The position numbers were made by a program, and so were the translations under genes. A stretch of DNA of 64,000 bases from a virus. Its lineage: Duplodnaviria; Caudoviricetes. Below are positions 3,438-58,120 of this stretch, one piece after another. Location: IMG/VR virus record IMGVR_UViG_3300018472_000401, positions 1 through 64,000 of that record; one strand, written 5' to 3'. The notes beneath the pieces are model-generated. The model was not told the origin of the DNA. It saw only the letters and a list, made by a program, of their open reading frames with translations, and did not search any database. Within the stretch, counting starts at the first letter, position 1. Each line of letters begins with the position of its first letter.

Positions 3438-3932
3438 TCACAAGAGTTTATTCAGTTTGTATAGTTCCAAATCAAACGCATTTTTCCTCTTCCATCCTGC
3501 TTCCAGCGTCTCTTGTACATATCGAATAGCACTCATATAGAAGTCCGTCAGCTCTTCAAGCGTATCAAACACCCGATACACTGGCTGTTCATCCGTACCG
3601 AACTTGAACGTGACCGGAAGCGTTGCACCGCTGGTCTGCACGGCAAGGTCGTATGTCGCTTTATAATTGAACTGATTCTCTGAGGATAGCCACACCAGGT
3701 TGCCCTCATACTCGAAGCCAGACAGGATTGCTTGGTCTGTCTGTCTGTTGTACCACACGATGACGATTGCTTTTATCTCCTCATCCGTAGGCTTGTGGTC
3801 AAACTCCTCCTCCATGTAGTCAGCAGAGTCATCCTCATGTTCCTGCACGTCCCAGCGTATGCGCCACTTGTCTTTCTTGGGGTTCACGCACTCTATGGGC
3901 AATACCCCTTTGTTTCCTGTTACTCTTCTCAT
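3438..3932 (-). CDS. Conserved Bacteroides phage protein (DUF4376-like); true start MRRVTG at 3932
   Basis: WLSSENQFNYKA...TFKFGTDE motif; starts 1 nt after the RT stop codon. Confidence 0.6.
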   Translation of the reverse strand: MRRVTGNKGVLPIECVNPKKDKWRIRWDVQEHEDDSADYMEEEFDHKPTDEEIKAIVIVWYNRQTDQAILSGFEYEGNLVWLSSENQFNYKATYDLAVQTSGATLPVTFKFGTDEQPVYRVFDTLEELTDFYMSAIRYVQETLEAGWKRKNAFDLELYKLNKLL

Positions 3933-3933
3933 A

Positions 3934-5361
3934 TCAAGTAAAAATATATTTTGTTTCACCTTTCTTCCCGTACATTTCCGCTTTGATTGTGGTTGTGAAC
4001 GGGAACTTATCCATTTCACGGATTTGCTCCAGTATAGACCACATTTCCTTGGATGCCGTGAAAAGCTTCTTTTCCACTCCGTCCACCTTAATGCGCACGA
4101 CATATCTGCCGTGTGGCTTTTCGATGTCCTCCGGGTTGATTACCCCTGCCGGGACTTTGCCGTTGTTCGCTGCGAGGGCGGCATTATAGACCGCTTTTGC
4201 CTCCGCAACTTTCTTCTCGTACTCCTCCCTCTCGAAACGGGGGACGATGCCAGTTTCAAAGTCCACCACCTCGATAGGGATGTTTACCAACTCACGGACG
4301 GACACGCTCATTCCCTTGAAACGCTTTTTGCCGTCCTCAAACTTGGGCTTGATGCCCAAACTCTTAAAATCATTCATCTTGATACCAGTTAAACGATAAA
4401 ACAAATTGTGGCAGTTTGCGTGCTTGCACTGCCCGTATAGGGAGGCAATTATCTCCTGCCGTCTTTTCTTACTCTTCACCTTGTGCAGCTTCCGGGCTGC
4501 ATTTTGCTTGTTGCGCTTTCTCAACCGGGTATGGGTTGGGTAGATAACATATCCGAGGAAGTCGATGCCCTCCGTAACCGGGAACACACGTTCATTCCCT
4601 TTCACTTGCAACATCATCAGCCCGGCTCTTTCGTGTACCATGTCCCGGAACTTCCAGCACTCCTTTTTGGTGCTTGAATGTCCGTCCCCATCATCGCAGT
4701 AACGGTAAAAGTGCTTGTAGCCCATTTGGTCTTTGATGTAGTGGTCAAGGAACATACTCAACAACATATTTCCAAAGCCCTGCGATGAGCGTAGCCCAAT
4801 GGATAAGCCGTTAGGCATCATCCTCACGAAACGCTCCAGCATCGTAAGCAGCACCTTGTCTTTGAACATTCTACGCAGGGCATACATCATAAAGTCTTGG
4901 TTCACGCTCTCGTAGAACTTTTTGATGTCGAACTTGTAGGCATACTTCATTGCCTCCGGGTGTTCCTGCAAGTCCCTACGGATAAAATTCAGTAGGTCGT
5001 GCATCCCTCTGCGCTTAATTGATGCCGCTGTGGTGCGGATATACCGCTTGAAAATTTTGTCCTCCACAACCGCCATGATAGCGTTACAGCCAATCCGCTC
5101 TATCAAAGACACGGACTGAACCCTGCGGACTTTTGGACCATCGGTGACAAGCATTTCACGATAGCCGGACAAGCAGAACGTGCCAGTCCGTATTTGCTCC
5201 TGCAACCTCTTTATCACCTCGTCCTGATGCGCCATAATCCAGCGACCGACATGGTTTTTCTTCCGTTTCCTGCCTCTCATTACGACATGGAGAGAGTTAT
5301 AGATGTTGCTGTATTCGCAAATCTCCTCTATGATGTTACTTGTCTTTCCTAATCTTCTCAT
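3934..5361 (-). CDS. DGR reverse transcriptase with a long C-terminal extension
   Basis: DIKKFYES, GLSIGLRSSQ (DGR-type SQ motif), YRYCDD, GIDFLGY; adjacent TR/VR pair. Confidence 0.95.
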   Translation of the reverse strand: MRRLGKTSNIIEEICEYSNIYNSLHVVMRGRKRKKNHVGRWIMAHQDEVIKRLQEQIRTGTFCLSGYREMLVTDGPKVRRVQSVSLIERIGCNAIMAVVEDKIFKRYIRTTAASIKRRGMHDLLNFIRRDLQEHPEAMKYAYKFDIKKFYESVNQDFMMYALRRMFKDKVLLTMLERFVRMMPNGLSIGLRSSQGFGNMLLSMFLDHYIKDQMGYKHFYRYCDDGDGHSSTKKECWKFRDMVHERAGLMMLQVKGNERVFPVTEGIDFLGYVIYPTHTRLRKRNKQNAARKLHKVKSKKRRQEIIASLYGQCKHANCHNLFYRLTGIKMNDFKSLGIKPKFEDGKKRFKGMSVSVRELVNIPIEVVDFETGIVPRFEREEYEKKVAEAKAVYNAALAANNGKVPAGVINPEDIEKPHGRYVVRIKVDGVEKKLFTASKEMWSILEQIREMDKFPFTTTIKAEMYGKKGETKYIFT

Positions 5362-5572
5362 TTTACTTTTTTGCCTTCAATTTTTCGGGGTCTGACTTCT
5401 TCGGCTGACATAAGTCCCTACCAAACTCCACCCCACGCTTTCTTTTCCAGTTTTCCGTGATTACTCACGCTGTTACTGAGGCTCATTCCCACAGGCTCCA
5501 CGTTGGGGACACGTCCCCGTTGTTGTACGCCTGAATACTTTTGAGGCATAACGCTTCTATTTCTTATTGTTT

Positions 5573-5684
5573 GCAAGCCGAGAACCAATGTTCGTGTTCG
5601 TGTTCGATGAATCGTTGTTCGTGTTCGCATACGCAACACCGCCATTCGCATTCGCATTGTTGTTCGACCGATACACCACACGGT
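5573..5684 (-). repeat. DGR template repeat (TR), 112 nt
   Basis: AAC/AAT-rich (11 Asn codons in the VR frame); differs from VR1 and VR2 only at minus-strand adenines. Confidence 0.97.
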
Positions 5685-5720
5685 GTCTTTGGGAAATCCA
5701 CCTTTGTTTTTCAAATGGAG

Positions 5721-5746
5721 GGAGGTCGAACAACAAGGTCGCCTCC
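5721..5746 (-). other. Imperfect GC-rich hairpin 3' of the VR1 gene
   Basis: GGAGGCGA-N9-TCGACCTCC on the minus strand. Confidence 0.4.
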
Positions 5747-5781
5747 GCTCCCGATTTTACGCTTTTTCGCTCCGCTTTCGC

Positions 5782-8700
5782 TTACGCTATTTCGACAATC
5801 GCTTTGAACGCTGCAACGCTCTTCGCAATGACGATTTTTCCACGGAAGGCAAGCCGAGAACCAATGTGCGTGCTCGTGAACGATGAATCGCTGTACGTGC
5901 TCGCACACGCAACACCGCCATACGCATTCGCAACGCTGTCCGACCGATACACCACACGGTTGATATAGCCTGAAACATAGTTATCATCGAAATAGTAACT
6001 TGATGTAGAGCCTCCAGCCCTTGCAACCCAAACGTCCATGTGCCGACCGTTCACTACATTCATCGGGTATCTATCACCGCCCGTAGTATCACCTTTCAGT
6101 TTGCGGATAGAGCCGTCCGGCATAGTGATGTGCATAGAGTAGTCCACCACGCCCTCGTTGAACGTGTCATTTATCCACTCTGCCTTATTGCCGTACCAGT
6201 TCTCATAACCCAATACATTAGGGGACTGAATGTTTTTCTTCGCTCCGTCCACCATGATGTATGCCGTTTTCTCTTCGTGGTTATCGGGGTTAGCGAAAGT
6301 GTCAGTCATTCCTGCCTCGTTGGTAAGTCCCGTAGCACGACCATTCGTGTTTGAACCATAGCCGCAAGTACCTTGGCTATCAGCCTTGCCGTATTTGGCG
6401 TAGAACAGGTTGCAGACATCCTTGTGCATTTCCCAATCGACAAGCTGAAATCCGTTTCCACGGTTCTTCGCATATTGCTTGAAATCCGGCTGCGTTATGC
6501 TTGCGGAAGATTGTACGTCACTTATAGAGCGCAACATATCATCACGTAACAACGCTTCATATACACCTGTAAGACACTCAACGTGTTCGCACCAATCAGG
6601 CTCAATCGCTTCTATATCCTCCGACTTGGTAAGCAGAACGTAGTCAAACGGGGCGTTGTTTACTACCGAGAATGCAAGTTTTACGGCATTTGCCGGAATC
6701 GCATTGAAAAGGTACATTCCGTTGATTATGCCGCTGTCCGAAGTGGCTTTCATGCGCTCTATGATGTTACCCTCCGAATCAAGGAACAACGCACCGTAAA
6801 CAGCCGAAACAAGTCCGGGGAAACGCACCTGCTTGTAGCCCCTAACATCTACCGTGTAGTAACTATTTTGCGATACTTGTGTTTCCGCTTCTGCCAGCGT
6901 GTTGTAATCAACCTGAATGCGTACCGCATAACCTGGCTTCACCTCCAAATCATCCTGCATCAACTTGATGCTTTCTGCCTTTGTCGGTTCGTTTTCAAGA
7001 GAACTGAAAATGCGGTACTTTGCTTTGTTCAAGAAGTCGTTCACACCCTTGTACCAGTAGTGAGGCTCAAACATCCATACATCGCCCTCCGCACCAGTAA
7101 GAATGGCAGGGGTAGCCAAGTTCACGCTCACGGCATCGTTATAATAACTTGAATGCTTGTCGTGCAGCCTACAGATGGTTTCCTCACCGTTGGCGGTTTT
7201 CTTTCCGAGGCAGCGGTAACGCTTTGACAAGATTTTTGCTACGTGACCGCTGTACTCAAACTCATTATCGTAGTCGTACCCGGTCTTGTTGTCGAGGTTG
7301 CTAAAGCCCGTGCCGTCAGTGATATGTTCAAGGTGCTTAATCACGGTGTACTCCGGCTGGCTAATTTGCAATTCCGGGAAATGCTCCTGCATCTGCGCAA
7401 AGGTCGCATCGTCAATGTAAGTGGTAAGCTGACATTTTCCGACAAGGCGGCAGGTCGGGGTGTTACCTCCGTTCTCGTCCACACCGCCAATCTTCATAAG
7501 CCGATTGAGCAACGTGCCATCGTCTTTCATATCCACGCCAGTAACACGCAGGTACTTCACGTTTTGGCACTTATTGAACAGGGCTATCCAGTCGATAGAG
7601 GCGCAATCATCCACCACGAGGCGGTCGATGTTGTCCGTACCCTCCAGTTGCAGCCCGTCATTGGTCAGGCGGTTAAGGCTGACAAGTTCCAGCGTTTGCA
7701 GCGTGGCAGGAAGTACGACCGACATAAGGGGCGCACCCTTGGCGAATGACACGCTTTTGAGGGCTGTGTTCCCGGCTGAAAGCACCTCCAGTTTTGCATT
7801 GCCCGAAAGGTCTATGTTCGTGAAACTTTCGGAAAGCAAGCCGTTCATCGTGAGGCTCTGCAAACTTTTACAATTCGTAACAATCAGCGCATTGAGCGTT
7901 TTCTGCGTTGAGCCGCAACTTACGTTCAGCGACCTCAATGCCGTGCAGTTGTTCAGGTTAAGGGTCTGCAAGATTGCGTGGGACACATTCGTCAGGTCAA
8001 GGTCTCTGATACGGCTTGCCCCGTAGAAGTTCTGTGGGTCGTTCACAATCAAGTCCGTGCTGATAGTCAGTTCCACTTTTGAACCCTCATTTTCCGCAAG
8101 CACCGCACTTTGCGTAGGTGTACCGTTGGTGTAGCCATAGCCGAAGTAGTACCGCTCGCTGGCAGTGATTTTCACCTTACGGGGCGACTGGCTGAACTTG
8201 TAGCCGAAGTAGCAAGCGAAGCTATCCGCACGGTAAGTACCAGCCACATACTGCGCATCCATGAGCGCAAAGCGGTTTTTAATGGTATAGAGGCGGTGGG
8301 CATAGCGGTTTCCCTGCAAGGCATACAGGTAGTCGTAGTACTTCACGCCCTCCGTTGTGCTTACACCCTCCGTCAGAGGCTGGATGTACTTGAAATAGCC
8401 GTCCTTGTTATAGACACGCTCCGACCAGTTACCCATCTGCGTAACATTGAACATCGTAAGCACCTCCTCCGTACTCATGTTAGAGCGGATAATGCCAGCG
8501 ACCTCAATCAACTTGTCTTTCATTGCGGTGCGCACCAGTTCCCACAAGAGGCTATCGTGTCCGGCAAAAGCGTATGAGCCAGTGGAGTTGTCGAAAGTCT
8601 CGTGCGTGATGATATACGTGTACGCAAGCACGGAATCATTACGGCTACCGAGGATTGTATCAGCATCGTAAGGCAGGAAATACCATGTCAGACCGTCCCA

Positions 8701-11700
8701 AGTGGCAAGCATCATATTCTTTGCCCGTTGGTCAACCGCCATGAAGTAGTCCGTGAACAGATACCAGGCGCAAAGGCTGTTTACATCGAAGTATTGGCTA
8801 ACCTCTGCTTTGAACTTATCGGGATTGTTCCGGCAACTTACTATCCAGTTCCACAAACGGGTAATTGCGCCTTTTTGATAGGCGGTAGCATCGCCCCAAG
8901 TAACATCAGCCGGGAAGCGGAACTCCAGACTATCGTCAAACTCCGTCATGTCGCTTGTGGAGAACAGGCAGAGCAGTTTTGAGTTGTTCAGGAACTCCAA
9001 GCAGATGCACGGGTTTTCCTTTCCGGCAAGTGTTGCCTCGTCATTAAAGCCCTCGATACCCTCGAAGCCATAGACAACATGGCTGTCGCTCTTTTCGTTG
9101 TTGAAATTGAACTTTCCGAGATACTTGTTATTGCCGCTGCTGTCGTTGTCGTAAAATCCATCCATCGGGAAACCGTCAACGCCAATGCGCAAATCGTAGC
9201 TACCCTTATATGCCTGTTGTGGAGGTGTCAGGAAGCCGCATTTCTTCCACACGTCATTGACAAGGCGCACAGCACCCGTGTTGTGGGTAGAGGAACTATC
9301 GGAGAAATCGGCTTTCAAACACCAAATTTTAACAGGTCTTGCACCCGGTTTGAAACTATATTCAAGGCTGGGTACATCCTTTCCGTTCACTTCAAGCGTT
9401 GTGCCGTATTTTTCCATGCGGTCAAAATATATGCGGTAGTTCTTTCGGGGATACGTTGTGGATGATGTCCCCTGTATGCGAAGCCCTGCGCCACGAACGA
9501 TGAAGTCGTACTCCTTGCCGTATGCCGAGTAGAAGTATATGTCAACCGGGACTTCAAATTTCTTGTTGTTGGTCTGATTGACAAGTTCCACATCGCCCAC
9601 GATACGCATCACGGACTTACCCTGTGCTCTCAATTTCTCCATATCTACAGAAACGCCCTCATCGTCCATTACATCGTTGGAATTGTAAAGCGTAACCATT
9701 TCCTCGACCGTTTCCCGGTCAACCATGAAATTGACAAGCATTTCATCATCAGTTAAGGGTTTTTCGTAGATACGGATTGAGCGCATATCTACATCTGCCG
9801 CCTCCGAACTTACGGTGATGTTCACAGGGTTGGGCTGCAAAAGGCTCTCCGTTCCGGCATACTGCTTCGTACCACATCGCACACCGTTCACGTACAACTC
9901 CATAAGCCTTGTGTCCGTTTTCTTTTGGATTACAAAGCTGATATGGAAATTCATGTCAGGCACGAAAGGAGTGTTTACCGATGAGCCGTTGGAGGCTATC
10001 ATCTTCACCTCTTCCGCTGTCATTTGGAAGCCGATGCCGCCCTCCATGCAGGACAGGATAACGCCCTTTTTGTCCGTGATGTTGGAGCAACGTAACTCAA
10101 ATTCGTAGGTCGCCCCGTTGGGGGTGGCATCCGAGGCAAAGGGCTTGTAGCCTATCTCAATGTTTGCCCCGTTCTGCATCCTCAATGTTTCGCCCGTCCA
10201 GCCGCTACCGCTCCAGTCAAAGCCGTTGAAAGCGGTCTTGATACCGTTGTACTCCCATTGTGCCGGGTTTTCCTCCGTGTTGCTACGACCTGCGGCTGAA
10301 AGTTTCAGCACCTGCCCTGCGGTAATCTCCTCGATGTCGATGCTTGAAGCCTTAACATCAATGTAGAACGGGTACAGCGTTGTGCCGCACTCGAAACGCA
10401 TATTGGTCTTGCCTTGCGAGGTGTAGCGGTTGGTGTATATCTGCACCGTTCTTGGCACACTGACCGTCTGTGTCTTCACGTTGTCACGGAACACGGACAT
10501 ATCAGCCGGGGTCTTGTCGGGGTCGTATGCGATGAACTCAAAATCCATCTTCTCATACTGCCCTACCTCGATTGTCGGGGTCAGGTGGTCGCTCGTGAAG
10601 ATACGCCCATCAGCGTGGCGCAACAGCGTACCGATGAAAGGCTTGTAACTTCCGGCTTTCAGGATGTCAAAGTAGATACTTTCGGACTTGATTGTAAGGT
10701 CGTCCGAGGCATCCATTTCCGCAACCATTTGGATTGTATGCCGCCCGGCTGCAAGGGTACTCAACGAGAGGTTAAAGTTGCCGTTGGTGATGCCGGACTT
10801 GGTTACGGTCTGTGCGTTCTGCTGCTTGCCGTCCACATAGAGGGTCACGACCTTTGTTCCTGCACCCGAAACGGTGAACGGTATTGACACGGTTTCAAGC
10901 GTTCCGTAGCCGCCCTGCGCTACCTTGTTGGCAAGGTTGTAGGAAGTGGAGAGAGCCAGCGTAACCACCTTAACGGATGAATATGCCTGCTTGGTCTGCT
11001 TCTTGCCCTCGATGTCCGTAACCTCTGCTTTCACGTAGATGTCAGTCGTACCGAGCAGCAGGTACTTGGATATGTCAAGGCTGTAACTGCCCTTTGCGAC
11101 ATTGGTGTAGGACTGGGTGAAAACCGTCTGCACACCTCGCTTCATCTGTATGGTTATGTTCGCCCTCTGCCCAGTGGATTGCCCGGCTTCATCGCCACCT
11201 GTATATTGGTGGTCGTAGGTATAGGTCAGTATGGAACTGCCGCCCTCTTTGATAATCGGGTTATCAACGGAAGAGGAAAGCACGATTTTGGTTGCCGACC
11301 CGGTTTCACCGCCTCCGGCTGGTATGGTAAATTCCGTAATGGTTGCCGACTTGCTTTTAAGGCTCACCGTTACCGTGTTATCGTCATTCTCCGTTACCTC
11401 GCTGCCGAAAAGCGTACCAGCATCCACCTCGTTCAGTTTTGCCGTTACTGCGGCATTTTGAACAGGGTTAGTGGAATCGAGGTTCAAGGTTTCGTCCACT
11501 TCGGGAACATCCACGTTGAGAACCACGTTTCCGGCATCGTCAGGGGTCTTTTTCTCACCGTTGAATGTTATCTGCTTGACCGCACCTGCGCCCCCGTACT
11601 CTTCCCACGCTCCGGGGGTGAGGAAGCTGCTGACGCTTGTTCCGGCAAAGCGGTAATCAGCCCATTTCCCTGCGCTGACCTCGAAAGTGATAATCATGCC

Positions 11701-12420
11701 CAGTTTCGCCTCGTCTGCTATGTCAGCCCCGGCAAGAGACGCCACAGCCGTTTCCTTTGTGTAGTAGCCGCTGCCCAAAGGCTGCTCAACAGTAACATTG
11801 TAGAACCCCGAACCGCTGCCCGAACCACCCCCAAAGTCCTTCCACTTGGAAGCGTTGTTGAACTCCGTAGCCGTGTTGCCCGAGAACTGCTTGCAAGCCC
11901 AGCCCTTAGCCGTGTTGAAAATGAACACGACCCCGTCCTGCTTTGCCTCCATGATGTTGGCTGCGACAATAGCATTAACCGCTGCCGTGATGTCCGCATA
12001 CTTGGTTGTAGTGTTCAGCACCCGGTTCACGTTCACTATCGTACCCCTCAACTCGCCAGCGACATTTCCGAGGTTGCCGAGGGCGGTGTTTACCTTTCCG
12101 ACTGCTTCGTTAGCCGTTCCTGCTGCCGTTTCTGCAACTCCTGCCTTGTTTGCGGCAAGGGTAGCCGCTGCATCGGCACGGGTCGTAGCTTCGACAGCCT
12201 TATTTGCCGCCTCCGTTGCCTTTGCAGCCGCATCGGTGGCAGGTTTGCCCAACAGCGACACGGGGGCTGCTACAACCTTGTTACCTTTCATAGCCGGGAG
12301 GGTCTTAACCCCGTCAAGGGTTGAAACCTCCTCCAACTCGTTCACGCCCTGCGATGCAGCCTTAACCTGTGCAAGTACATCTTGAACGATTTGTTTTCTT
12401 TCCGCATCTGTAATAGCCAT
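5782..12420 (-). CDS. Large tail fibre / receptor-binding protein, DGR target 1 (CotH-like region, LRR-like region, C-terminal CLec-like VR domain)
   Basis: 2212 aa, last gene of the tail module; ENWYGNKAEW...RVVYRS...GSRLAF C-terminus containing VR1. Confidence 0.88.
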   Translation of the reverse strand: MAITDAERKQIVQDVLAQVKAASQGVNELEEVSTLDGVKTLPAMKGNKVVAAPVSLLGKPATDAAAKATEAANKAVEATTRADAAATLAANKAGVAETAAGTANEAVGKVNTALGNLGNVAGELRGTIVNVNRVLNTTTKYADITAAVNAIVAANIMEAKQDGVVFIFNTAKGWACKQFSGNTATEFNNASKWKDFGGGSGSGSGFYNVTVEQPLGSGYYTKETAVASLAGADIADEAKLGMIITFEVSAGKWADYRFAGTSVSSFLTPGAWEEYGGAGAVKQITFNGEKKTPDDAGNVVLNVDVPEVDETLNLDSTNPVQNAAVTAKLNEVDAGTLFGSEVTENDDNTVTVSLKSKSATITEFTIPAGGGETGSATKIVLSSSVDNPIIKEGGSSILTYTYDHQYTGGDEAGQSTGQRANITIQMKRGVQTVFTQSYTNVAKGSYSLDISKYLLLGTTDIYVKAEVTDIEGKKQTKQAYSSVKVVTLALSTSYNLANKVAQGGYGTLETVSIPFTVSGAGTKVVTLYVDGKQQNAQTVTKSGITNGNFNLSLSTLAAGRHTIQMVAEMDASDDLTIKSESIYFDILKAGSYKPFIGTLLRHADGRIFTSDHLTPTIEVGQYEKMDFEFIAYDPDKTPADMSVFRDNVKTQTVSVPRTVQIYTNRYTSQGKTNMRFECGTTLYPFYIDVKASSIDIEEITAGQVLKLSAAGRSNTEENPAQWEYNGIKTAFNGFDWSGSGWTGETLRMQNGANIEIGYKPFASDATPNGATYEFELRCSNITDKKGVILSCMEGGIGFQMTAEEVKMIASNGSSVNTPFVPDMNFHISFVIQKKTDTRLMELYVNGVRCGTKQYAGTESLLQPNPVNITVSSEAADVDMRSIRIYEKPLTDDEMLVNFMVDRETVEEMVTLYNSNDVMDDEGVSVDMEKLRAQGKSVMRIVGDVELVNQTNNKKFEVPVDIYFYSAYGKEYDFIVRGAGLRIQGTSSTTYPRKNYRIYFDRMEKYGTTLEVNGKDVPSLEYSFKPGARPVKIWCLKADFSDSSSTHNTGAVRLVNDVWKKCGFLTPPQQAYKGSYDLRIGVDGFPMDGFYDNDSSGNNKYLGKFNFNNEKSDSHVVYGFEGIEGFNDEATLAGKENPCICLEFLNNSKLLCLFSTSDMTEFDDSLEFRFPADVTWGDATAYQKGAITRLWNWIVSCRNNPDKFKAEVSQYFDVNSLCAWYLFTDYFMAVDQRAKNMMLATWDGLTWYFLPYDADTILGSRNDSVLAYTYIITHETFDNSTGSYAFAGHDSLLWELVRTAMKDKLIEVAGIIRSNMSTEEVLTMFNVTQMGNWSERVYNKDGYFKYIQPLTEGVSTTEGVKYYDYLYALQGNRYAHRLYTIKNRFALMDAQYVAGTYRADSFACYFGYKFSQSPRKVKITASERYYFGYGYTNGTPTQSAVLAENEGSKVELTISTDLIVNDPQNFYGASRIRDLDLTNVSHAILQTLNLNNCTALRSLNVSCGSTQKTLNALIVTNCKSLQSLTMNGLLSESFTNIDLSGNAKLEVLSAGNTALKSVSFAKGAPLMSVVLPATLQTLELVSLNRLTNDGLQLEGTDNIDRLVVDDCASIDWIALFNKCQNVKYLRVTGVDMKDDGTLLNRLMKIGGVDENGGNTPTCRLVGKCQLTTYIDDATFAQMQEHFPELQISQPEYTVIKHLEHITDGTGFSNLDNKTGYDYDNEFEYSGHVAKILSKRYRCLGKKTANGEETICRLHDKHSSYYNDAVSVNLATPAILTGAEGDVWMFEPHYWYKGVNDFLNKAKYRIFSSLENEPTKAESIKLMQDDLEVKPGYAVRIQVDYNTLAEAETQVSQNSYYTVDVRGYKQVRFPGLVSAVYGALFLDSEGNIIERMKATSDSGIINGMYLFNAIPANAVKLAFSVVNNAPFDYVLLTKSEDIEAIEPDWCEHVECLTGVYEALLRDDMLRSISDVQSSASITQPDFKQYAKNRGNGFQLVDWEMHKDVCNLFYAKYGKADSQGTCGYGSNTNGRATGLTNEAGMTDTFANPDNHEEKTAYIMVDGAKKNIQSPNVLGYENWYGNKAEWINDTFNEGVVDYSMHITMPDGSIRKLKGDTTGGDRYPMNVVNGRHMDVWVARAGGSTSSYYFDDNYVSGYINRVVYRSDSVANAYGGVACASTYSDSSFTSTHIGSRLAFRGKIVIAKSVAAFKAIVEIA
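5849..5960 (-). repeat. DGR variable repeat VR1
   Basis: 112-nt alignment to TR with 13 mismatches, all at TR adenines; 3' end CTTGCCTTC versus TR CTTGCAAAC (IMH/IMH*). Confidence 0.97.
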
Positions 12421-32432: not shown

Positions 32433-32593
32433 CCGTCACGGGTGAGGAAACGGCTGCGCTCCTTATGCAGTTTGCACCGACACAGGAACGGCTTGCCGTT
32501 TGCCCCAATCTCGTGCGGCTCGTAGGAATAGATACATTCCTTGCAGTGAATATCAAGTTTCTTCTTTGCCATGTCCTTATACGGTTGGTTCAT
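32405..32593 (-). CDS. Small Cys-rich protein
   Basis: CxxC...CxC...C pattern, between portal and MuF genes. Confidence 0.5.
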   Translation of the reverse strand: MNQPYKDMAKKKLDIHCKECIYSYEPHEIGANGKPFLCRCKLHKERSRFLTRDGCGQFKRRL

Positions 32594-33956: not shown

Positions 33957-33968
33957 ATATTTACGTTT

Positions 33969-35579
33969 TTAATAGAGTATATCGTCAATATCTTCATCCC
34001 CGTAATTCGGGAGTGCGTTTACACCAGTCATTTCAACCGCTTTCGGGTGGAACGTGTTAGCCAGTGCATCAAACTCGTCTATGGAGTGTCCCAGCCGCTC
34101 CTTGATGTCTTCTTTCGGCTCGATGATTATCTTGCCATTGGAAAGGAACGACCACTTGATTTCCGTTGCCTCCTCCATGAAGCTGCCGCCCGGTGGGAGC
34201 ATCGCCCCGGTGTTGTTGTCGGGGTTGAGCCAATCCCGGACTGCCCAAAACAGGTACGCCCTCATGTTGGCAAAGGTGTACTGCCCGGTGATGTCCGTTA
34301 GGTCTTTTCCGCTGCTGGTCTTTGCGCCCTCGCTATACTTACAACTGATGATTGTTTCCTCGTCCAGTTTTCCGTTGCTCTCTTGGCATATCTCGACCGC
34401 ACGTGAGTAAACCCCTGCACCCTCTCCAATCGTATCAATAGACACGCTGTAACCGCTGTGTATGGTGATTTCATTCTTGATGCGCCCGGCTACTTTCATG
34501 TGGTCTGCCTTGCCGCCTGAATTGTGCTTGTCGAAACTCTCAACGTAGTTGTCGAAACGCTTACAATACACGGTGCAGTCCCGACCCATACCTGCCACAT
34601 CGACACCGAGAATAGCGTTATTGTGGCTCGTCAGTTTGTAGTGCTTCCAGCGTTCCTGCGCAATCTCTACCCACTTCTGCGGTATCAAGATGTCCTCGTC
34701 CACTTTCGGGAACTCACCGAGAACTTTCTTGCGGAAGAGGTCGGAGGGGCGATACCACTTGCCCTCAAAGCAAAAGTCGTTCTCACTCTCTTTCACTTCC
34801 TCCTCCGTTATCGGCTCGCACCAGTTCTCCACCTTGTCAACGACCCAGTCGTAGTCCACCTGTCCGGGGATGCTGATTTTCTTCTCAACGACATTGGGGG
34901 CTGTCAGGCTGTTCAGGCAGAAACGCTCCCAGCGTGGGGACTTTTGGGAACGGGCGGCATAGCCTACGGTGGTGTTCGGGTTGAATACAAGCAGAAGCCT
35001 CGAATTGCCCTGCAAGTTACCCTCAATAGCCGTGTAGGTATCATCGAGAATACCCGTAGCCTCCGTAACGACAAACATCGTGTTCACGGCATGGAAGCCC
35101 GACCACGCCTCGTGATTGTTCTCGTCAGCCTTAAAGCCCGTCAAGAACCATTCCTCATTGTCTGTGCGGATGTCGTAGGCGTTGAGCCTACCGGGGAGCG
35201 TGAAACCACGCCTCTTTGCACGGTTGAATAGTCTTGAAATTTCAGGCATCATGATGTTTTTTACTTGTCGGTCGGTCGGAGCGGTGAGAGCAACTTTCGT
35301 GTTCTCGACAAGTTCCATTTTGCCGTTGGGATTCTTTTTCCACTTCGGGGTGAGATACAGGAAGCACACAGCGATACAAGCAGCGACAAAATCCTTGCCC
35401 CGTGCCGTACCGCTGCGGACTGATACCAACTTCTTGTGCTGGACGGCTGTAACGATGGCTTGCTGTTCCTCATCCAACGTGACCCCAAGAGCCTCGCTGA
35501 TAAACTTGTTCCAGTCGTTACGCCATTCAGCGAATAGTTTGGCAGCGTTCTTGCGTATCTGTACCTCATTCCTCGCCAT
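33969..35579 (-). CDS. terL: Terminase large subunit
   Basis: SGTARGKDF Walker A, VVTEATG Walker B, GVDVAGMGRD and DEFDAL nuclease motifs. Confidence 0.9.
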   Translation of the reverse strand: MARNEVQIRKNAAKLFAEWRNDWNKFISEALGVTLDEEQQAIVTAVQHKKLVSVRSGTARGKDFVAACIAVCFLYLTPKWKKNPNGKMELVENTKVALTAPTDRQVKNIMMPEISRLFNRAKRRGFTLPGRLNAYDIRTDNEEWFLTGFKADENNHEAWSGFHAVNTMFVVTEATGILDDTYTAIEGNLQGNSRLLLVFNPNTTVGYAARSQKSPRWERFCLNSLTAPNVVEKKISIPGQVDYDWVVDKVENWCEPITEEEVKESENDFCFEGKWYRPSDLFRKKVLGEFPKVDEDILIPQKWVEIAQERWKHYKLTSHNNAILGVDVAGMGRDCTVYCKRFDNYVESFDKHNSGGKADHMKVAGRIKNEITIHSGYSVSIDTIGEGAGVYSRAVEICQESNGKLDEETIISCKYSEGAKTSSGKDLTDITGQYTFANMRAYLFWAVRDWLNPDNNTGAMLPPGGSFMEEATEIKWSFLSNGKIIIEPKEDIKERLGHSIDEFDALANTFHPKAVEMTGVNALPNYGDEDIDDILY

Positions 35580-49192: not shown

Positions 49193-49214
49193 GGGGCAGC
49201 GGAATTGCCGCCCC
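49193..49214 (-). other. GC-rich hairpin 3' of the VR2 gene
   Basis: GGGGCGGC-AATTCC-GCTGCCCC. Confidence 0.5.
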
Positions 49215-49225
49215 GGTTAGTAATC

Positions 49226-49774
49226 TTATTTCTCTTCCTCCGGCTTGAAAACATAATCAGCCCAAATCTCAACGAACTGGCGACCTGCGTATTCCGAAAG
49301 TTCACTTGTCTTGAAGGCAAGCCGAGAACCAATGCCCGTGCTCGTGTCCGATGAATCGTTGTACGTGAGCGCATACGCAACACCGCCATACGCATTCGCA
49401 TAGCCGTCCGACCGATACACCACACGGCTTTTCTCTTCCTCACTCATTTCGTCAATCTCCGACTGGGTATAGAGGTAGAACCACGGGAAATAGCGGTATT
49501 CATCCGTAGTGAACTGGGGCTTCCAGCCCTCGTTGAGAGCCGCTGCGATGATGCGCAGTTTCAGGTAGGCGATTACATCGGCTTCAAGTCCGAGGTCTTT
49601 CTTGTCCTGCACCCACTTGTCATGCTCAATGCCTAATTCATTACAGGCATCCTTGAATGTCTTGACACGCTCCATTACGTTTTGGGGCTTCTCGTCCACG
49701 AGTGTTAGCACTCCGTTTACCCATTCGGGCTTCTTGCCGTTAGGCACTTCGATTTCAATCTTTTTTGAGTTCAT
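49226..49774 (-). CDS. Small early protein, remote DGR target 2
   Basis: C-terminal RVVYRS...GSRLAF region encoded by VR2. Confidence 0.85.
   Translation of the reverse strand: MNSKKIEIEVPNGKKPEWVNGVLTLVDEKPQNVMERVKTFKDACNELGIEHDKWVQDKKDLGLEADVIAYLKLRIIAAALNEGWKPQFTTDEYRYFPWFYLYTQSEIDEMSEEEKSRVVYRSDGYANAYGGVAYALTYNDSSDTSTGIGSRLAFKTSELSEYAGRQFVEIWADYVFKPEEEK
49317..49427 (-). repeat. DGR variable repeat VR2
   Basis: 111-nt alignment to TR 5573-5683 with 12 mismatches, all at TR adenines; same CTTGCCTTC 3' end as VR1. Confidence 0.95.
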
Positions 49775-54808: not shown

Positions 54809-55128
54809 TAAAACGCTTCTTTGATGCGTTGCAGATTTTGATTGAGAACAAGGTTATCCGGGGCAAACAAACTTTCGCCACACGGTACGGGATAAACCGC
54901 AGAAATATGTACTCACTGGAGAAAGAGCCGGGACGGGACATATTTCAGGTGGCGTGGCTGGAATATCTTGCCAACGACTACATGGTGTCCCCGGTGTGGC
55001 TGCTTACCGGGAAAGGCTCATTTTTCGCTGACGGCTGGGATGCCGACCGGGTCAAGTCAAAGGTGAAGAGCGAGCAGGAAAATAGCGAAAAACTGCAAGA
55101 AAACTGCAAATGCGAAAACGATATATAA
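54781..55128 (+). CDS. HTH-like regulator
   Basis: QTFATRYGINRRN; WLLTGKG. Confidence 0.6.
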   Translation: MQTGQSQVIIKRFFDALQILIENKVIRGKQTFATRYGINRRNMYSLEKEPGRDIFQVAWLEYLANDYMVSPVWLLTGKGSFFADGWDADRVKSKVKSEQENSEKLQENCKCENDI

Positions 55129-55170
55129 TAATATAATAATAATCAGTGAGTTGCGAGTTGATTTGCAACT
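55089..55170. other. Candidate attR: arm-type direct repeats and inverted core-type repeats
   Basis: AAAACTGCAA at 55089 and 55100; AGTTGCGA-GTTGAT-TTGCAACT at 55149-55170; inferred only, since attL is outside the window. Confidence 0.35.
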
Positions 55171-55200
55171 CCTTTGCAATATGACAAATGAGTGAATCTA

Positions 55201-55497
55201 ATGAGAATATTTACAGAACAAGCTATAAAGGAATATGCAGAGACGCATCCTGATGCAAAGGTAGCTTTACAAGAATGGACTACCATAGTCAAGAAAAGCG
55301 AATGGACTTGCTTTGCAGACGTAAAAAAGACCTTCAATAGTGTTGATAATGTGGGTAACCAACATTATGTATTCAATATTAAAGGAAATAATTACAGGCT
55401 GATTGTTGTGATAAGATTCACTATAAAGTTTGTTTATATTCGTTTCATTGGCACTCATACTGAATATGATAGAATAGCTGATTGTTCAGTTTTATAA
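55201..55497 (+). CDS. higB: HigB-family mRNA interferase toxin
   Basis: YVFNIKGNNYRLIV...FIGTH.EYD motif. Confidence 0.9.
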   Translation: MRIFTEQAIKEYAETHPDAKVALQEWTTIVKKSEWTCFADVKKTFNSVDNVGNQHYVFNIKGNNYRLIVVIRFTIKFVYIRFIGTHTEYDRIADCSVL

Positions 55498-55534
55498 TTA
55501 AACCGAATCGGCGGTTACCGATTACCAAAGAACT

Positions 55535-55900
55535 ATGACAAAGATAGAAACAAAAGCTCAATACGACTGGGCTGTAAAAAGGGTTGAGAAATTACTTCCG
55601 CTGGTTACAGATGAAACCCCTCTCGATGACCCAAATAGCATAGAGTTGGAATTACTTTCTAACCTTGTTGCTGACTATTCAGAAGAACATTTTGCACTGG
55701 GAGAACCAACCCTTGTTGATGTTCTCAAACTCCGTATGTATGAAATGGGGCTTAACCAAAAAGCGCTGGCTGAATTAATTGGTGTTAGCCCTTCCCGATT
55801 GAGCGATTATATATCCGGTAAATGTGAACCTACTTTGAAGGTTGCTCGTGAAATAAGCCAAAAATTAAATATTGATGCTAATATAGTGCTAGGTGTTTGA
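55535..55900 (+). CDS. higA: HigA-family HTH antitoxin
   Basis: Downstream of the toxin; C-terminal XRE HTH LNQKALAELIGVSPSRLS. Confidence 0.9.
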   Translation: MTKIETKAQYDWAVKRVEKLLPLVTDETPLDDPNSIELELLSNLVADYSEEHFALGEPTLVDVLKLRMYEMGLNQKALAELIGVSPSRLSDYISGKCEPTLKVAREISQKLNIDANIVLGV

Positions 55901-56288
55901 TTGAATATGAGAGCTGTTGAAGCAATAGTTGAGAATACGTTGATCTAGGGGCATCAGAACGAATTGTGTAAGATAGAACGGCGGCAAAAATGTTGTTACA
56001 GTTTGTTTATCAGCAAGTTAAACGAATACGGGCTTTCATGCGAACGCAAAACGAAATGTGACATTACTTTACATCGGCTTTACATCTAAACGGCCTAAAC
56101 GCGGGCTTTAAATACGTTTTTGTTACATCACCCTATAAATATCACCTAAACGGGGCTGGAATAGGCTGTAAAGGCTTATTTCGGCCTTTTTCATATCTGT
56201 TTAGGCGTTTAGAAATCTGTTTAAGTGCCCATTTAGACAGGAAAAACAAGCGGTTTCAAAATCCCTCTCTTAAATGTTAAAAAAGGGG

Positions 56289-56367
56289 TTGGGCATACCT
56301 TTGGGCATACTAGTTGGGCATACCCTTTTTTATTCATTTTATGCAAAAAATAAAAAGTTGGGCATAC
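56289..56367. repeat. Four direct copies of TTGGGCATAC
   Basis: Copies at 56289, 56301, 56314 and 56358. Confidence 0.85.
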
Positions 56368-56580
56368 CTTTTTAACAGTTTCCCGACCATGTATTAGATA
56401 AGAGATTACTTTCTGTGTATGTGATTAAGCTGTTTTAGTCGTTATTTTGGTATGGATAGTATTATATATTTTCGGATTGATTACGCTGCAAAATTAACGT
56501 AAAGTACTGATTTATAGTGTCGGTTTGGGTGATAATGCGTATTTTTACGGTGAAAACGTGTGTGTGCGTGTAGAAATGAT

Positions 56581-56660
56581 GCAGAATAGCTCAGAAGGTA
56601 GAGCAAACAGTACTGGACGCCTGCTGTTTTGTCCCTGGTTCGAGTCCGGGTTCTGCCCCA
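56581..56660 (+). tRNA. tRNA-like gene with abnormal anticodon arm (pseudo- or non-canonical tRNA)
   Basis: GCAGAA/TTCTGC-C-CCA; D arm GCTC-AGAAGGTA-GAGC; AACAG-N13-CTGTT; T arm CCTGG-TTCGAGT-CCGGG. Confidence 0.6.
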
Positions 56661-56708
56661 ATACTTTTGTGAATTTGCGTTTTTATAGGTATTTGGTTTA
56701 AGGTGAAC

Positions 56709-56739
56709 GCTCCCGGTGAAAGTCCGGGAGCTTATTTTT
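56709..56739 (+). terminator. Intrinsic terminator after the tRNA-like gene
   Basis: GCTCCCGG-TGAAAGT-CCGGGAGC-TTATTTTT. Confidence 0.7.
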
Positions 56740-56988
56740 AAGGATATGGGAAAGAATCTGATTCGTACAATACTGGATGATCATCGTGATGCGGCTTTGT
56801 ATAAGGCAGCAGCCAATCAGTTTCTGGCCATGCTTACTCTTGATAATATTTCCCCTTATTATAACACAGACGACCATCTGTTAGACAGCATTGGGCTTAA
56901 AATTTTACGCCTCAAAATGGAGAATCAAAAATTGAAAGAGGAAATTTCATTACTTAAAAAGACCAATCAGACTAATGAGGGTTCCTAA
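56716..56988 (+). CDS. Hypothetical protein (start probably ATG 56746)
   Basis: ORF with C-terminal coiled coil. Confidence 0.45.
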   Translation: MKVRELIFKDMGKNLIRTILDDHRDAALYKAAANQFLAMLTLDNISPYYNTDDHLLDSIGLKILRLKMENQKLKEEISLLKKTNQTNEGS

Positions 56989-57414
56989 ATAAGCCCAATA
57001 AGAATTATAATCCTTGGTAATTAAAAGGTATAAAACTGAGGCTATCAGTAAGATACATGATGCGGATTTGTAGAACTTTTTCTTTTTTCTATCTTCTTCA
57101 AGCCGCCTTAACACTTCTGCTTCTCTTTGTTTGCGATTTTCTTCTTCACGTTTCATTTCAGCTTCTATAACGGCTGAATATCCTCCGTTATCTACAAATA
57201 ATCTCCCTTTTGGAGTGAGCATTATAGGCATTTCAAATTGACTTCCTAATATTCTAATATAGCCGTCGTTCTGTAAGATGCCAAGCAAACTATAGACAGT
57301 ATTAAATTCAGATTCGTCATGTGTCTTAATAACTGTTGTATAGTTGTCTGATGGGAATAATTTCAGAATATCGTCCAGTTGTTTAGCCAAATTTTTATTC
57401 ATCTTAATCAGCAT
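56950..57414 (-). CDS. AT-rich hypothetical membrane protein
   Basis: C-terminal hydrophobic helices; downstream of the repressor. Confidence 0.5.
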   Translation of the reverse strand: MLIKMNKNLAKQLDDILKLFPSDNYTTVIKTHDESEFNTVYSLLGILQNDGYIRILGSQFEMPIMLTPKGRLFVDNGGYSAVIEAEMKREEENRKQREAEVLRRLEEDRKKKKFYKSASCILLIASVLYLLITKDYNSYWAYLGTLISLIGLFK

Positions 57415-57454
57415 TTAAATATTGGTTATTTCACTACATCTATAATATTACAGC

Positions 57455-58120
57455 TTACTCCAGCCGTATAACCCCGATAACCAGGGCCACATGATAAATC
57501 CTGTCCAAAGGTAATTCGAATGGCTCGTAACGTTCATTGTCCGATACGATGAGGACGTGTTCTTTGTCGGATCCGGGCTTTACCCGTTTGATAAGGGGGC
57601 CCTGATCTGTATCCAATACATATACTTTATTCCATTGGAAGAAAAGCTCATCCATCGGCAAACGCTTGCAGGCTACAATATCTCCGCTGTTATATTTAGG
57701 ATACATGCTGCTTCCTTTCACGCTGATCAGGAACTCGGCTCCCTTGAATGTGGGAACAACAAAGCGTTCGCATTCGTATTCCAGTACGGTCTGTTCACCG
57801 GTGAATGTTCCTGCCATTGCGCTGATGGGAATCAAGGGGATGCCCTCCATGGGCGAATCGGATGGATGGGCTACCGGTATGTTTTCTTCCTTTCCAGACT
57901 CCGTACGGAGCATGTTGCCTTCGCCTGTAAGGAGCCAATTTATATTTATATCGAAACTTCTTGCGATTTTCTCCAAAAAGTCAGCTTTAGGCATTACTCC
58001 GTTTTTGTAATTCCTTACATTAGCTTCGCTAACTCCTATTAATGAGGCGAATACTGTGTTTTTTCCATTTCCAAATTTTTCTACGATAGTAGAGATTCTG
58101 TCGAAAATAGTTTCGTTCAT
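57455..58120 (-). CDS. CI/LexA-like repressor (HTH + S24 peptidase)
   Basis: FASLIGVSEANV HTH; VKGSSMYP and LIKRV S24 motifs. Confidence 0.9.
   Translation of the reverse strand: MNETIFDRISTIVEKFGNGKNTVFASLIGVSEANVRNYKNGVMPKADFLEKIARSFDININWLLTGEGNMLRTESGKEENIPVAHPSDSPMEGIPLIPISAMAGTFTGEQTVLEYECERFVVPTFKGAEFLISVKGSSMYPKYNSGDIVACKRLPMDELFFQWNKVYVLDTDQGPLIKRVKPGSDKEHVLIVSDNERYEPFELPLDRIYHVALVIGVIRLE

What the first reader, a model, noticed from the sequence alone, without database searches (positions are those of the whole stretch)
49226..49774. Second DGR target 43.6 kb from the TR, in a small non-structural early gene
Seen: VR2 (49317-49427) matches TR at 99 of 111 nt, with all 12 differences at TR adenines. 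It has the same IMH-type 3' end as VR1 and a downstream GC hairpin. The host gene (182 aa) lies among the recombination and helicase genes and has no signal peptide or TM segment. Known: phage DGRs typically diversify tail receptor-binding proteins next to the cassette. Inference: one TR also hypermutates an intracellular CLec-like binding module, e.g. an anti-defence or host-takeover adaptor evolving in parallel with host range.
Basis: partly seen in the sequence, partly recalled or inferred. Interest (0 to 1): 0.85.

Follow-up and report, generated by a model that had tools for sequence, protein, structure and literature searches.

The report
Remote second DGR target, early gene
A gut Bacteroidales prophage uses one mutagenic retroelement to rewrite both its giant tail protein and a small soluble protein encoded among its recombination and replication genes; the site is real and active in nature, but the same arrangement in the same protein family is already published and the protein's function is still unknown.

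Summary
The DGR lies on the minus strand: RT 5361-3934, TR 5683-5573, VR1 5959-5849 in a 2212-aa CotH/LamG tail protein. VR2 (49427-49317) sits in a 182-aa gene and differs from TR at 12 sites, all TR adenines (P about 2e-8).

VR2 is diversified in nature. 115 near-identical homologues carry 115 different VR peptides. 99.7% of residues at A-containing codons are reachable by A-to-N changes. The rest of the protein is almost invariant.

The gene lies in the early operon between RecE/RecT-like genes and helicase/replication-initiator genes. The protein is acidic, with no signal peptide or TM segment.

It is not new. The protein (phrog_11581) is 43% identical to the distal DGR target of LoVEphage/Quimbyvirus (Benler 2021). 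Distal second VRs are reported in four gut prophages (Nature 2025) and shown active in Roseburia phage Shimadzu. This scan has already noted the same thing in at least 24 other genomes.

The "CLec-like" label is unconfirmed: a confident AF2 model matches no solved fold, and likeness to the VR1 protein stops at the 40-aa VR. The downstream hairpin is lineage-specific, not a DGR signal. The anti-defence role remains speculation.

Verdict: new member of a known kind.

The parts
49317..49427 (-). VR2, the second variable repeat (111 nt)
   Evidence: 89% identical to TR. All 12 mismatches are at TR adenines. Hypervariable at these codons in 115 relatives.
49226..49774 (-). 182-aa target gene: small acidic soluble protein, phrog_11581 family
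   Evidence: ORF. phrog_11581 E 1.3e-53. 5581 homologues at the 90% cluster level and 1899 clusters at 50%. AF2 pLDDT 84 with a low-confidence VR loop at 120-153. No TM segment or signal peptide.
49317..49334 (-). IMH-like 3' end of VR2, identical in TR, VR1 and VR2
   Evidence: The alignments. The next 4 nt are CTTC in both VRs and AAAC in the TR.
49193..49214 (-). GC hairpin (8-bp stem, 6-nt loop) in the 49-nt gap after the stop codon
   Evidence: Fold. Present only in some lineages and missing in many DGR-positive homologues. Probably a terminator or intergenic element, not a DGR cruciform.
5573..5683 (-). Template repeat (TR), 30 adenines
   Evidence: Carries A at every variable column. 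99% conserved in relative L103 while the VRs differ.
5849..5959 (-). VR1, at the C-terminus of the giant tail protein
   Evidence: 13 mismatches to TR, all at adenines. The alleles differ among relatives.
5782..12420 (-). 2212-aa VR1 target with CotH and Laminin_G_3 domains
   Evidence: Pfam. Matches 'domain group 3' of Bacteroides DGR variable proteins (bioRxiv 10.1101/2024.11.15.621889).
3934..5361 (-). DGR reverse transcriptase (475 aa)
   Evidence: Pfam RVT_1 and phrog_1423 at E 1e-83.
3438..4103 (-). DUF4376-like gene directly after the RT. Conserved with phage BT-TP2. Role in the DGR unknown.
   Evidence: Pfam DUF4376 E 1e-4, below the curated cutoff. BT-TP2 gp46 has the same position.

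Best explanation
Shown: this is a functional two-target DGR of a roughly 56-kb temperate Bacteroidales siphovirus. The RT copies TR RNA into cDNA with random bases opposite adenines. That cDNA replaces any VR that shares the TR's 3' homology block, both VR1 in the tail protein and VR2 in the 182-aa gene. Distance and orientation do not matter: in LoVEphage the homologous VR2 is on the opposite strand. This randomises up to 18 residues (11 AAY codons plus 7 single-A codons) of a loop in a small acidic soluble protein.

Inferred: the protein is made from the early operon, together with the recombination and replication genes, and is not a virion part. It acts inside the infected cell as a stand-alone variable binder for a polymorphic host or rival-phage factor (counter-defence, host takeover or exclusion). 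Each burst would then carry a library of variants of it alongside a library of tail variants.
For: A-only mismatches for both VRs. The RT is present.

Population data. 115 of 115 relatives that are 90-96% identical have distinct VR peptides. 2178 of 2185 residues at A-codons are reachable by A-to-N changes. Only 15 of 1955 residues at non-A VR codons and 44 of 16790 outside the VR differ. At nucleotide level six relatives differ from the TR at 13-20 VR sites, 0-2 of them non-A, against 0-8 differences in the other 438 nt. The TR is conserved while VR1 alleles differ.

The same family is a second target with A-only mismatches in 10 genomes of several lineages, including LoVEphage. BT-TP2, G002 and G004 also hold the homologue plus two repeat partners, though their mismatches were not scored.

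Early-module position recurs in four lineages. Here it lies between RecE/RecT-like and helicase/O-like/DnaC-like genes. In BT-TP2 it lies directly after the cro-like HTH gene. In LoVEphage it sits among methyltransferase, DUF2400 and RtcB genes. In Versailles it lies between NinB and the replisome organizer.

No signal peptide or TM segment. Activity of a second VR was shown experimentally in Roseburia phage Shimadzu (bioRxiv 10.1101/575076).
Against: There are no expression, localisation or partner data for any member, so timing is inferred from gene order only. The binding loop is the same TR-coded 40 aa used by the tail protein, so a receptor-binding role on the virion is not excluded. In Shimadzu the VR2 alleles looked weakly selected, which also fits a dispensable or bystander target. 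No Avd accessory gene was found. The fold gave no functional clue.
Confidence: 0.55

Rival explanations
1. The small protein is a virion-associated accessory adhesin, such as a fibre-tip or decoration protein. It is encoded outside the structural module and diversified to widen host or mucus binding in step with the tail protein.
For: It carries the same TR-coded loop as the tail protein. Known phage DGR targets are mostly receptor binders. The first 28 or so residues are lineage-specific while residues 29-176 are conserved, as expected for a phage-specific attachment end. At positions mutated in both VRs of one genome, the two VRs carry the same base in 25 of 46 cases against about one third expected (binomial P 0.003). 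That hints at shared constraints.
Against: It sits in the early recombination/replication operon in four unrelated lineages and never in the tail module. No tail or fibre domain was found. The 'tail protein' label in phage Versailles came from an HHpred search against PHROGs v3 (record note); it was not checked here which part of the protein gave that match. The base coincidence can also come from RT misincorporation bias or structural selection.
Confidence: 0.22
2. VR2 is a bystander target. The gene acquired a VR-like segment by recombination and is mutagenised because it carries the homing signal, with little or no selective value in the diversity.
For: In Shimadzu every isolate had a different VR2 allele and no allele dominated, read by the authors as weaker selection. 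Complete relatives G001 and G005 keep the gene but have lost the RT and TR.
Against: The gene and its role as a DGR target are kept across divergent lineages with different TRs and different VR1 proteins. The scaffold residues within the VR are invariant and the ORF is never disrupted among 115 variants. That argues for purifying selection on a working protein.
Confidence: 0.15
3. The protein is exported or surface-exposed in the lysogen and acts in superinfection exclusion or host adhesion, as a lysogenic-conversion factor.
For: Bacteroides cellular DGRs diversify surface pilins. The gene lies near the immunity region in BT-TP2.
Against: It has no signal peptide, lipobox or TM segment. It sits inside the lytic early operon downstream of the switch, not in a moron position.
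Confidence: 0.05

Closest known systems
Distal second DGR target of Quimbyvirus / LoVEphage (Benler et al. 2021, PMC8008677; LoVEphage MW660583 CDS 33613-34197)
   Same: Homologous protein, 43% identical over residues 35-176. The VR is at the same position and matches a TR beside a tail-fibre VR1 and RT. It lies in the non-structural region with methyltransferases and other DNA-metabolism genes.
   Different: A different phage: about 56 kb against 71 kb. The RT here is a single ORF, not three frameshifted ORFs. VR1 sits in a 2212-aa CotH protein rather than a tail collar fibre. VR2 is on the same strand as the TR here and on the opposite strand there. The immediate neighbours here are recombination/helicase genes.
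[quoted passage not shown] 3c)
   Same: Bacteroidota temperate phages found by the same TR-BLAST logic. [quoted passage not shown] The speculated arms-race role is the same.
   Different: I could not establish whether this prophage is one of those four species. That paper does not define the target protein family or its fold.
Bacteroides phage BT-TP2 (PQ571279), unannotated homologue
   Same: Closest GenBank relative of the protein, 63% identical. Same cassette layout: giant VR1 protein, TR, RT, DUF4376 gene, integrase.
   Different: The gene is the second gene of the early operon, right after the cro-like HTH gene and only about 4.6 kb from the TR across int. It is split over the ends of the linear record and not annotated.
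Roseburia phage Shimadzu VR2 (named orf43 in the text and orf44 in a legend; bioRxiv 10.1101/575076)
   Same: A temperate gut phage in which one TR serves a tail-gene VR1 and a second VR in a gene of unknown function. Both were shown to be mutagenised in virion DNA.
   Different: A Firmicutes phage. Homology of its target to this family was not tested here.
Bordetella phage BPP-1 DGR (mtd-avd-TR-brt)
   Same: Adenine-specific mutagenic retrohoming from TR to VR, with a shared 3' homing block.
   Different: BPP-1 has a single target, a structural one next to the cassette, with a C-type lectin fold, an Avd gene and a cruciform directly after the VR. None of these last three could be shown for VR2 here.
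Tentaclins (PMC10743442)
   Same: Two-target phage DGRs from gut viromes.
   Different: [quoted passage not shown] It is a different protein family.

Membership tests
Diversity-generating retroelement (DGR) | Reverse transcriptase of the DGR type close to the TR | tested here: met
   475-aa ORF 5361-3934, 212 nt downstream of the TR. Pfam RVT_1 at 32 bits (cutoff 29.6) and phrog_1423 at E 1e-83. Clade assignment within RTs was not done.
Diversity-generating retroelement (DGR) | TR/VR pair whose mismatches fall on TR adenines | tested here: met
   VR2 12 of 12 and VR1 13 of 13 at adenines. P 2e-8 and 4e-9.
Diversity-generating retroelement (DGR) | VR at the 3' end of a protein-coding target, in frame, with AAY codons in the TR | tested here: met
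   VR2 covers codons 116-153 of 182. 11 AAC/AAT codons and 8 single-A codons.
Diversity-generating retroelement (DGR) | Shared 3' homing block (IMH) with a TR-specific variant (IMH*) | tested here: met
   An 18-nt identical end in all three copies, then CTTC in both VRs against AAAC in the TR. The function of the block was not tested.
Diversity-generating retroelement (DGR) | Ongoing diversification in populations | tested here: met
   115 distinct VR2 peptides in 115 near-identical homologues. 99.7% of A-codon residues fit A-to-N changes. The TR is conserved and VR1 varies.
Diversity-generating retroelement (DGR) | Accessory protein Avd | tested here: inconclusive
   No Pfam or PHROG hit for the 98-aa ORF that overlaps the TR or for neighbouring small ORFs. 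Absence of a hit does not exclude a divergent Avd.
Diversity-generating retroelement (DGR) | Hairpin/cruciform just downstream of the VR (BPP-1 type) | tested here: inconclusive
   Hairpins exist about 100 nt after both VRs, beyond the stop codons. They are missing in many DGR-positive homologues.
phrog_11581 / distal DGR target family of Quimbyvirus-LoVEphage | Sequence homology over the whole scaffold, not only the VR | tested here: met
   phrog_11581 E 1.3e-53 over residues 28-177. 43% identical to LoVEphage over residues 35-176. Conserved motifs lie outside the VR.
phrog_11581 / distal DGR target family of Quimbyvirus-LoVEphage | VR at the equivalent position, matched by that phage's own TR | tested here: met
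   LoVEphage and eight IMG/VR loci, with A-only mismatches scored. G002 and G004 hold two repeat partners of their own VR. BT-TP2 holds three matches to this window's TR, one of them in the small gene. Complete genomes G001 and G005 have the gene but no TR or RT.
phrog_11581 / distal DGR target family of Quimbyvirus-LoVEphage | Location in the early, non-structural region | tested here: met
C-type lectin fold DGR variable proteins (Mtd, TvpA, TaqVP type) | Structural similarity of the scaffold to a solved CLec variable protein | tested here: inconclusive
   AF2 model with pLDDT 84, mostly helical, VR loop at low confidence. Foldseek against PDB gave no hit with E below 2. VIA-align against 48161 chains gave a best Z of 4.1 with no lectin among the 50 entries listed (lowest listed Z 3.0). 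The model of the VR1 domain failed at pLDDT 35, so the two scaffolds could not be compared.
C-type lectin fold DGR variable proteins (Mtd, TvpA, TaqVP type) | Sequence or profile match to CLec-type families (FGE-sulfatase, DUF1566, Mtd) | tested here: not met
   No such Pfam hit in any of 83 family members at E up to 1. No PDB sequence hit. hhalign to the VR1 C-terminal family aligns only the 44 VR columns. Benler et al. report a C-type lectin domain by HHpred for the Quimbyvirus homologue, which I could not reproduce with these tools.

The most novel reading that the evidence does not exclude
The phrog_11581 proteins are not lectin-fold receptor binders. They would be a distinct, mostly helical, phage-only scaffold onto which the DGR loop is grafted, acting in the cytoplasm as an antibody-like variable binder against polymorphic host defence or rival-phage proteins. 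DGRs in gut phages would then routinely diversify an intracellular counter-defence arm in parallel with host range.
Probability: 0.2. Interest if true: 0.75.

Novelty: new member of a known kind. Interest (0 to 1): 0.3.

Why it matters
If the small protein acts inside the cell, phage DGRs would diversify more than adsorption. They would also diversify an intracellular recognition function, and this family would offer a compact natural scaffold for programmable binders. The family is large (1899 clusters at 50% identity), is confined to phages and prophages of gut Bacteroidales and relatives, is repeatedly DGR-targeted, and has no solved or annotated relative. One structure plus one partner screen would therefore explain thousands of hypervariable genes. 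For this particular locus the value is confirmatory. It adds a further lineage and clean population-level evidence, not a new principle.

Tried and rejected
- Fold of the small protein: Foldseek against PDB gave nothing. VIA-align wide gave a best Z of 4.1. BFVD returned only uncharacterised phage proteins. The ESM Atlas returned only unnamed viral clusters and no named hit.
- Sequence searches: PDB with the single protein and with the profile gave nothing meaningful. Pfam on the protein, on 83 relatives and on 10 longer N-terminally extended relatives gave nothing.
- Comparison with the VR1 scaffold: BLASTP and hhalign align only the VR. The AF2 model of the VR1 C-terminal 299 aa failed at pLDDT 35, so no fold comparison was possible.
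- Hairpin as a DGR recognition element: rejected as unsupported.
- Exact A-masked TR pattern: 0 hits in genome contigs and only 4 in viral contigs, so it was too strict to survey.
- Whole-record searches of the Logan/ENA contigs that carry close relatives were not possible because the records are not held.
- Idea that DGR-less members are diversified in trans by another element: dropped. G001 is a close relative of the DGR-positive G002, so loss of the cassette explains it.
A tyrosine integrase sits at 1-1203 and ARAGORN finds no tRNA at 55-58 kb.
- The sigma-70 promoter and terminator scan of the early operon was uninformative.
- Complex prediction was not used because no specific partner is claimed.

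Full report
OBSERVATION

One repeat family has exactly three copies in the window and in the whole 90.5-kb provirus record: 5569-5683, 5845-5959 and 49313-49427. Every variable column carries T on the plus strand in the 5569-5683 copy. The element therefore reads on the minus strand, and that copy is the template repeat (TR 5683-5573, 30 adenines in 111 nt).

VR1 (5959-5849) differs from the TR at 13 positions and VR2 (49427-49317) at 12. All of these are TR adenines. The hypergeometric probabilities are 4e-9 and 2e-8.

The last 18 nt are identical in all three copies. The following 4 nt are CTTC in both VRs and AAAC in the TR, which is an IMH/IMH*-like asymmetry.

The reverse transcriptase is the 475-aa ORF 5361-3934 (RVT_1; phrog_1423 at E 1e-83). 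VR1 ends a 2212-aa ORF with CotH and Laminin_G_3 domains. This matches the 'domain group 3' type of Bacteroides DGR variable protein (10.1101/2024.11.15.621889).

VR2 covers codons 116-153 of the 182-aa ORF 49774-49226. The protein is 21 kDa with pI 4.75, a hydrophilic N-terminus and no 19-residue window above KD 1.3. It therefore has no signal peptide or TM segment.

IS VR2 ACTIVE?

- The protein has 5581 homologues at the 90% cluster level. The best 120 are 90-96% identical and 115 of them are exactly 182 aa.
- Column entropy among these 115 is 2.4-3.0 bits at the eleven AAC/AAT TR codons and about 1 bit at single-A codons. It is essentially zero elsewhere.
- The residues seen are those that A-to-N changes allow: Y/F/C/S at TAT, T/A/S/P at ACG, D/G/V/A at GAT.
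- In total 2178 of 2185 A-codon cells (99.7%) are reachable by A-to-N changes. Only 15 of 1955 non-A VR cells and 44 of 16790 cells outside the VR differ. All 115 VR peptides are distinct, against 23 distinct backbones.
- At nucleotide level six relatives differ from the TR at 13-20 VR2 positions (0-2 of them non-A), but from the window at only 0-8 of the other 438 nt.
- In relatives the TR is 99% conserved while VR1 alleles differ.

VR2 is therefore a live DGR target in nature.

CONTEXT

The prophage runs from a tyrosine integrase (1-1203) through these modules:
- lysis (amidase 1906-2496);
- the DGR and tail genes;
- major head protein (24807-25916) and portal (32577-33956);
- a long minus-strand block with Holliday-junction resolvase, DNA methyltransferase, DnaC-like loader, O/DnaD-like initiator, helicase, a DUF2303-like protein and a 142-aa protein;
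- the target gene itself;
- two small ORFs, a RecE-like exonuclease and a phrog_3657 protein in the RecT position;
- three small ORFs facing a divergent HTH repressor.

The 'early, non-structural' position is thus confirmed by gene order. Expression timing is an inference.

Metagenome contigs that carry close relatives of the gene are 56.0-56.6 kb long. In the circular genome VR2 would therefore lie about 12-13 kb from the TR across the int/att junction (inferred).

The GC hairpin at 49214-49193 is real. It lies 103 nt past the VR and 11 nt past the stop codon. A downstream hairpin is present in only some lineages and absent in many DGR-positive homologues. I read it as an intergenic or terminator element.

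THE PROTEIN FAMILY

The protein is a full-length member of phrog_11581 (E 1.3e-53). An exhaustive profile-free search finds 1899 clusters at 50% identity, mostly stand-alone proteins of 160-210 aa.

The family consensus keeps motifs outside the VR (ERIKTFEDAC, AYLKLRIIxAALNEGW, RYYPWF, GSRLAFK..ELA.YAGKQF). It is degenerate at exactly the VR positions.

GenBank homologues sit in non-structural regions in three other lineages:
- LoVEphage, among DUF2400, methyltransferase and RtcB genes;
- phage Versailles, between NinB and the replisome organizer, despite a 'tail protein' label;
- BT-TP2, directly after the cro-like HTH gene and split across the record ends.

In LoVEphage the homologue carries a VR that matches a TR and a tail-collar-fibre VR1 next to a fragmented RT. 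In BT-TP2 the cassette layout matches this window: giant protein with VR1, TR, RT, DUF4376 gene, integrase.

Of the best 80 IMG/VR loci, 16 have TR/VR partners within 10 kb. In nine further genomes of several lineages (LoVEphage and eight IMG/VR loci), as in this window, both VRs differ from their own TR at adenines only, with 0-1 exceptions.

Among the five complete or near-complete genomes tested, G002 and G004 hold an RT and two repeat partners 12-13 kb away, and G003 holds an RT. G001 (with direct terminal repeats) and G005 keep the gene but have no TR and no RT. G001 belongs to a clade whose members differ in NNC-type fashion, so it most likely lost the cassette.

FOLD

An AF2 model built on 83 diverse relatives is confident (pLDDT 84, pTM 0.75). 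It shows an N-terminal beta-hairpin followed by helices. The VR (residues 120-153) forms a low-confidence loop between helices, and two helices follow it.

It matches nothing solved. Foldseek gave no E below 2. VIA-align against 48161 chains gave a best Z of 4.1. In BFVD it matches only uncharacterised phage proteins. Pfam and PDB sequence searches are empty.

Likeness to the VR1 protein is limited to the 40-44 VR-coded residues, both by BLASTP and by profile-profile comparison. A model of the VR1 domain failed.

The 'C-type-lectin-like' label is therefore not confirmed here. Benler et al. reported a lectin domain by HHpred for the Quimbyvirus homologue. Because the VR itself is poorly modelled, I rate the question open.

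WHAT IS KNOWN

- Benler et al. 2021 described the Quimbyvirus DGR with one structural target and one distal, apparently non-structural target near methyltransferases and a tRNA ligase, and proposed a role in phage-host conflict (PMC8008677). LoVEphage has that layout, and its target is this family.
- In Roseburia phage Shimadzu both VRs were shown to be mutagenised in virion DNA, with VR2 alleles less strongly selected than VR1 alleles (10.1101/575076).
- Two-target cassettes of another kind, the tentaclins, are also described (PMC10743442).
- This scan has noted the same phenomenon in at least 24 other genomes, with follow-ups reaching the same conclusion.

MECHANISM AND ODDS

Shown:
- a complete RT/TR/VR system with two targets;
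- adenine-specific diversification of both targets in populations;
- a soluble small target in the early module.

Inferred:
- trans-acting cDNA homing through the shared 3' block;
- early expression;
- function as an intracellular variable binder.

My odds:
- about 0.97 that VR2 is a genuine, active DGR target;
- about 0.55 that the protein is a non-virion intracellular binder;
- 0.22 that it is a virion-associated accessory adhesin;
- 0.15 that it is a largely neutral bystander target;
- 0.05 that it is exported.

One marginal observation favours shared constraints on the two loops. At adenines mutated in both VRs of one genome, the two VRs carry the same base in 25 of 46 cases (binomial P 0.003 against one third). 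RT bias or structural selection could explain this.

VERDICT

The finding is real and well supported, and it is a further member of a published kind. Interest is modest.

Noticed in passing
window 1-1203 (+) and 55000-58000: The prophage has a tyrosine integrase with Arm-DNA-bind_5, SAM-like and catalytic domains at its left end. ARAGORN finds no tRNA or tmRNA at 55-58 kb.
   Followed up: partly
window 5418-5714 (-), 3438-4103 (-): No Avd accessory gene was detected. A 98-aa TTG-start ORF overlaps the TR and has no family hit. A DUF4376-like gene follows the RT, overlapping its 3' end by 170 nt, as in phage BT-TP2 (gp46).
   Followed up: partly
window VR1 5849-5959 vs VR2 49317-49427; loci L018, L019, L030, L035, L041, L046, L051, LoVEphage: At TR adenines mutated in both VRs of the same genome, the two VRs carry the same base in 25 of 46 cases (5 of 9 in this window). 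This is more than the one third expected. The cause could be shared ligand or structural constraints, RT bias, or co-homing from one cDNA pool.
   Followed up: partly
L026 (record G001, 62 kb with terminal repeats) and L033 (G005): These complete phage genomes keep a phrog_11581 homologue with an S/Y/H-rich 'fossil' VR segment but have neither an RT nor a TR. Close relatives (G002, G003) have the RT (G002 also shows the TR and VR1). This suggests recent loss of the DGR with the target retained.
   Followed up: yes
L011 (PQ571279.1, Bacteroides phage BT-TP2) 44859-45224 and 1-340: The BT-TP2 homologue of the small target is unannotated and split across the ends of the linear record. Part of its coding sequence (about 50 codons) is present at both ends of the record. 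It is the second gene after the cro-like HTH and about 4.6 kb from the TR.
   Followed up: partly
family members P0127, P0129, P0182, P0198, P0201, P0216: The first 28 or so residues of the family are lineage-specific. Some relatives carry N-terminal extensions up to a total length of 362 aa, with no Pfam domain. This may be a phage-specific docking end.
   Followed up: partly
L102, L104, L110, L111, L123, L126, L128-L130, L132-L136: Many IMG/VR contigs of related phages end inside or at VR1. This is the assembly break expected at a hypervariable DGR site.
   Followed up: no
window 5717-5751 (-): A second GC-rich hairpin lies about 98 nt after VR1, a similar distance to the one after VR2 (103 nt). 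Both are just past their stop codons. This may be coincidence or a shared element.
   Followed up: partly
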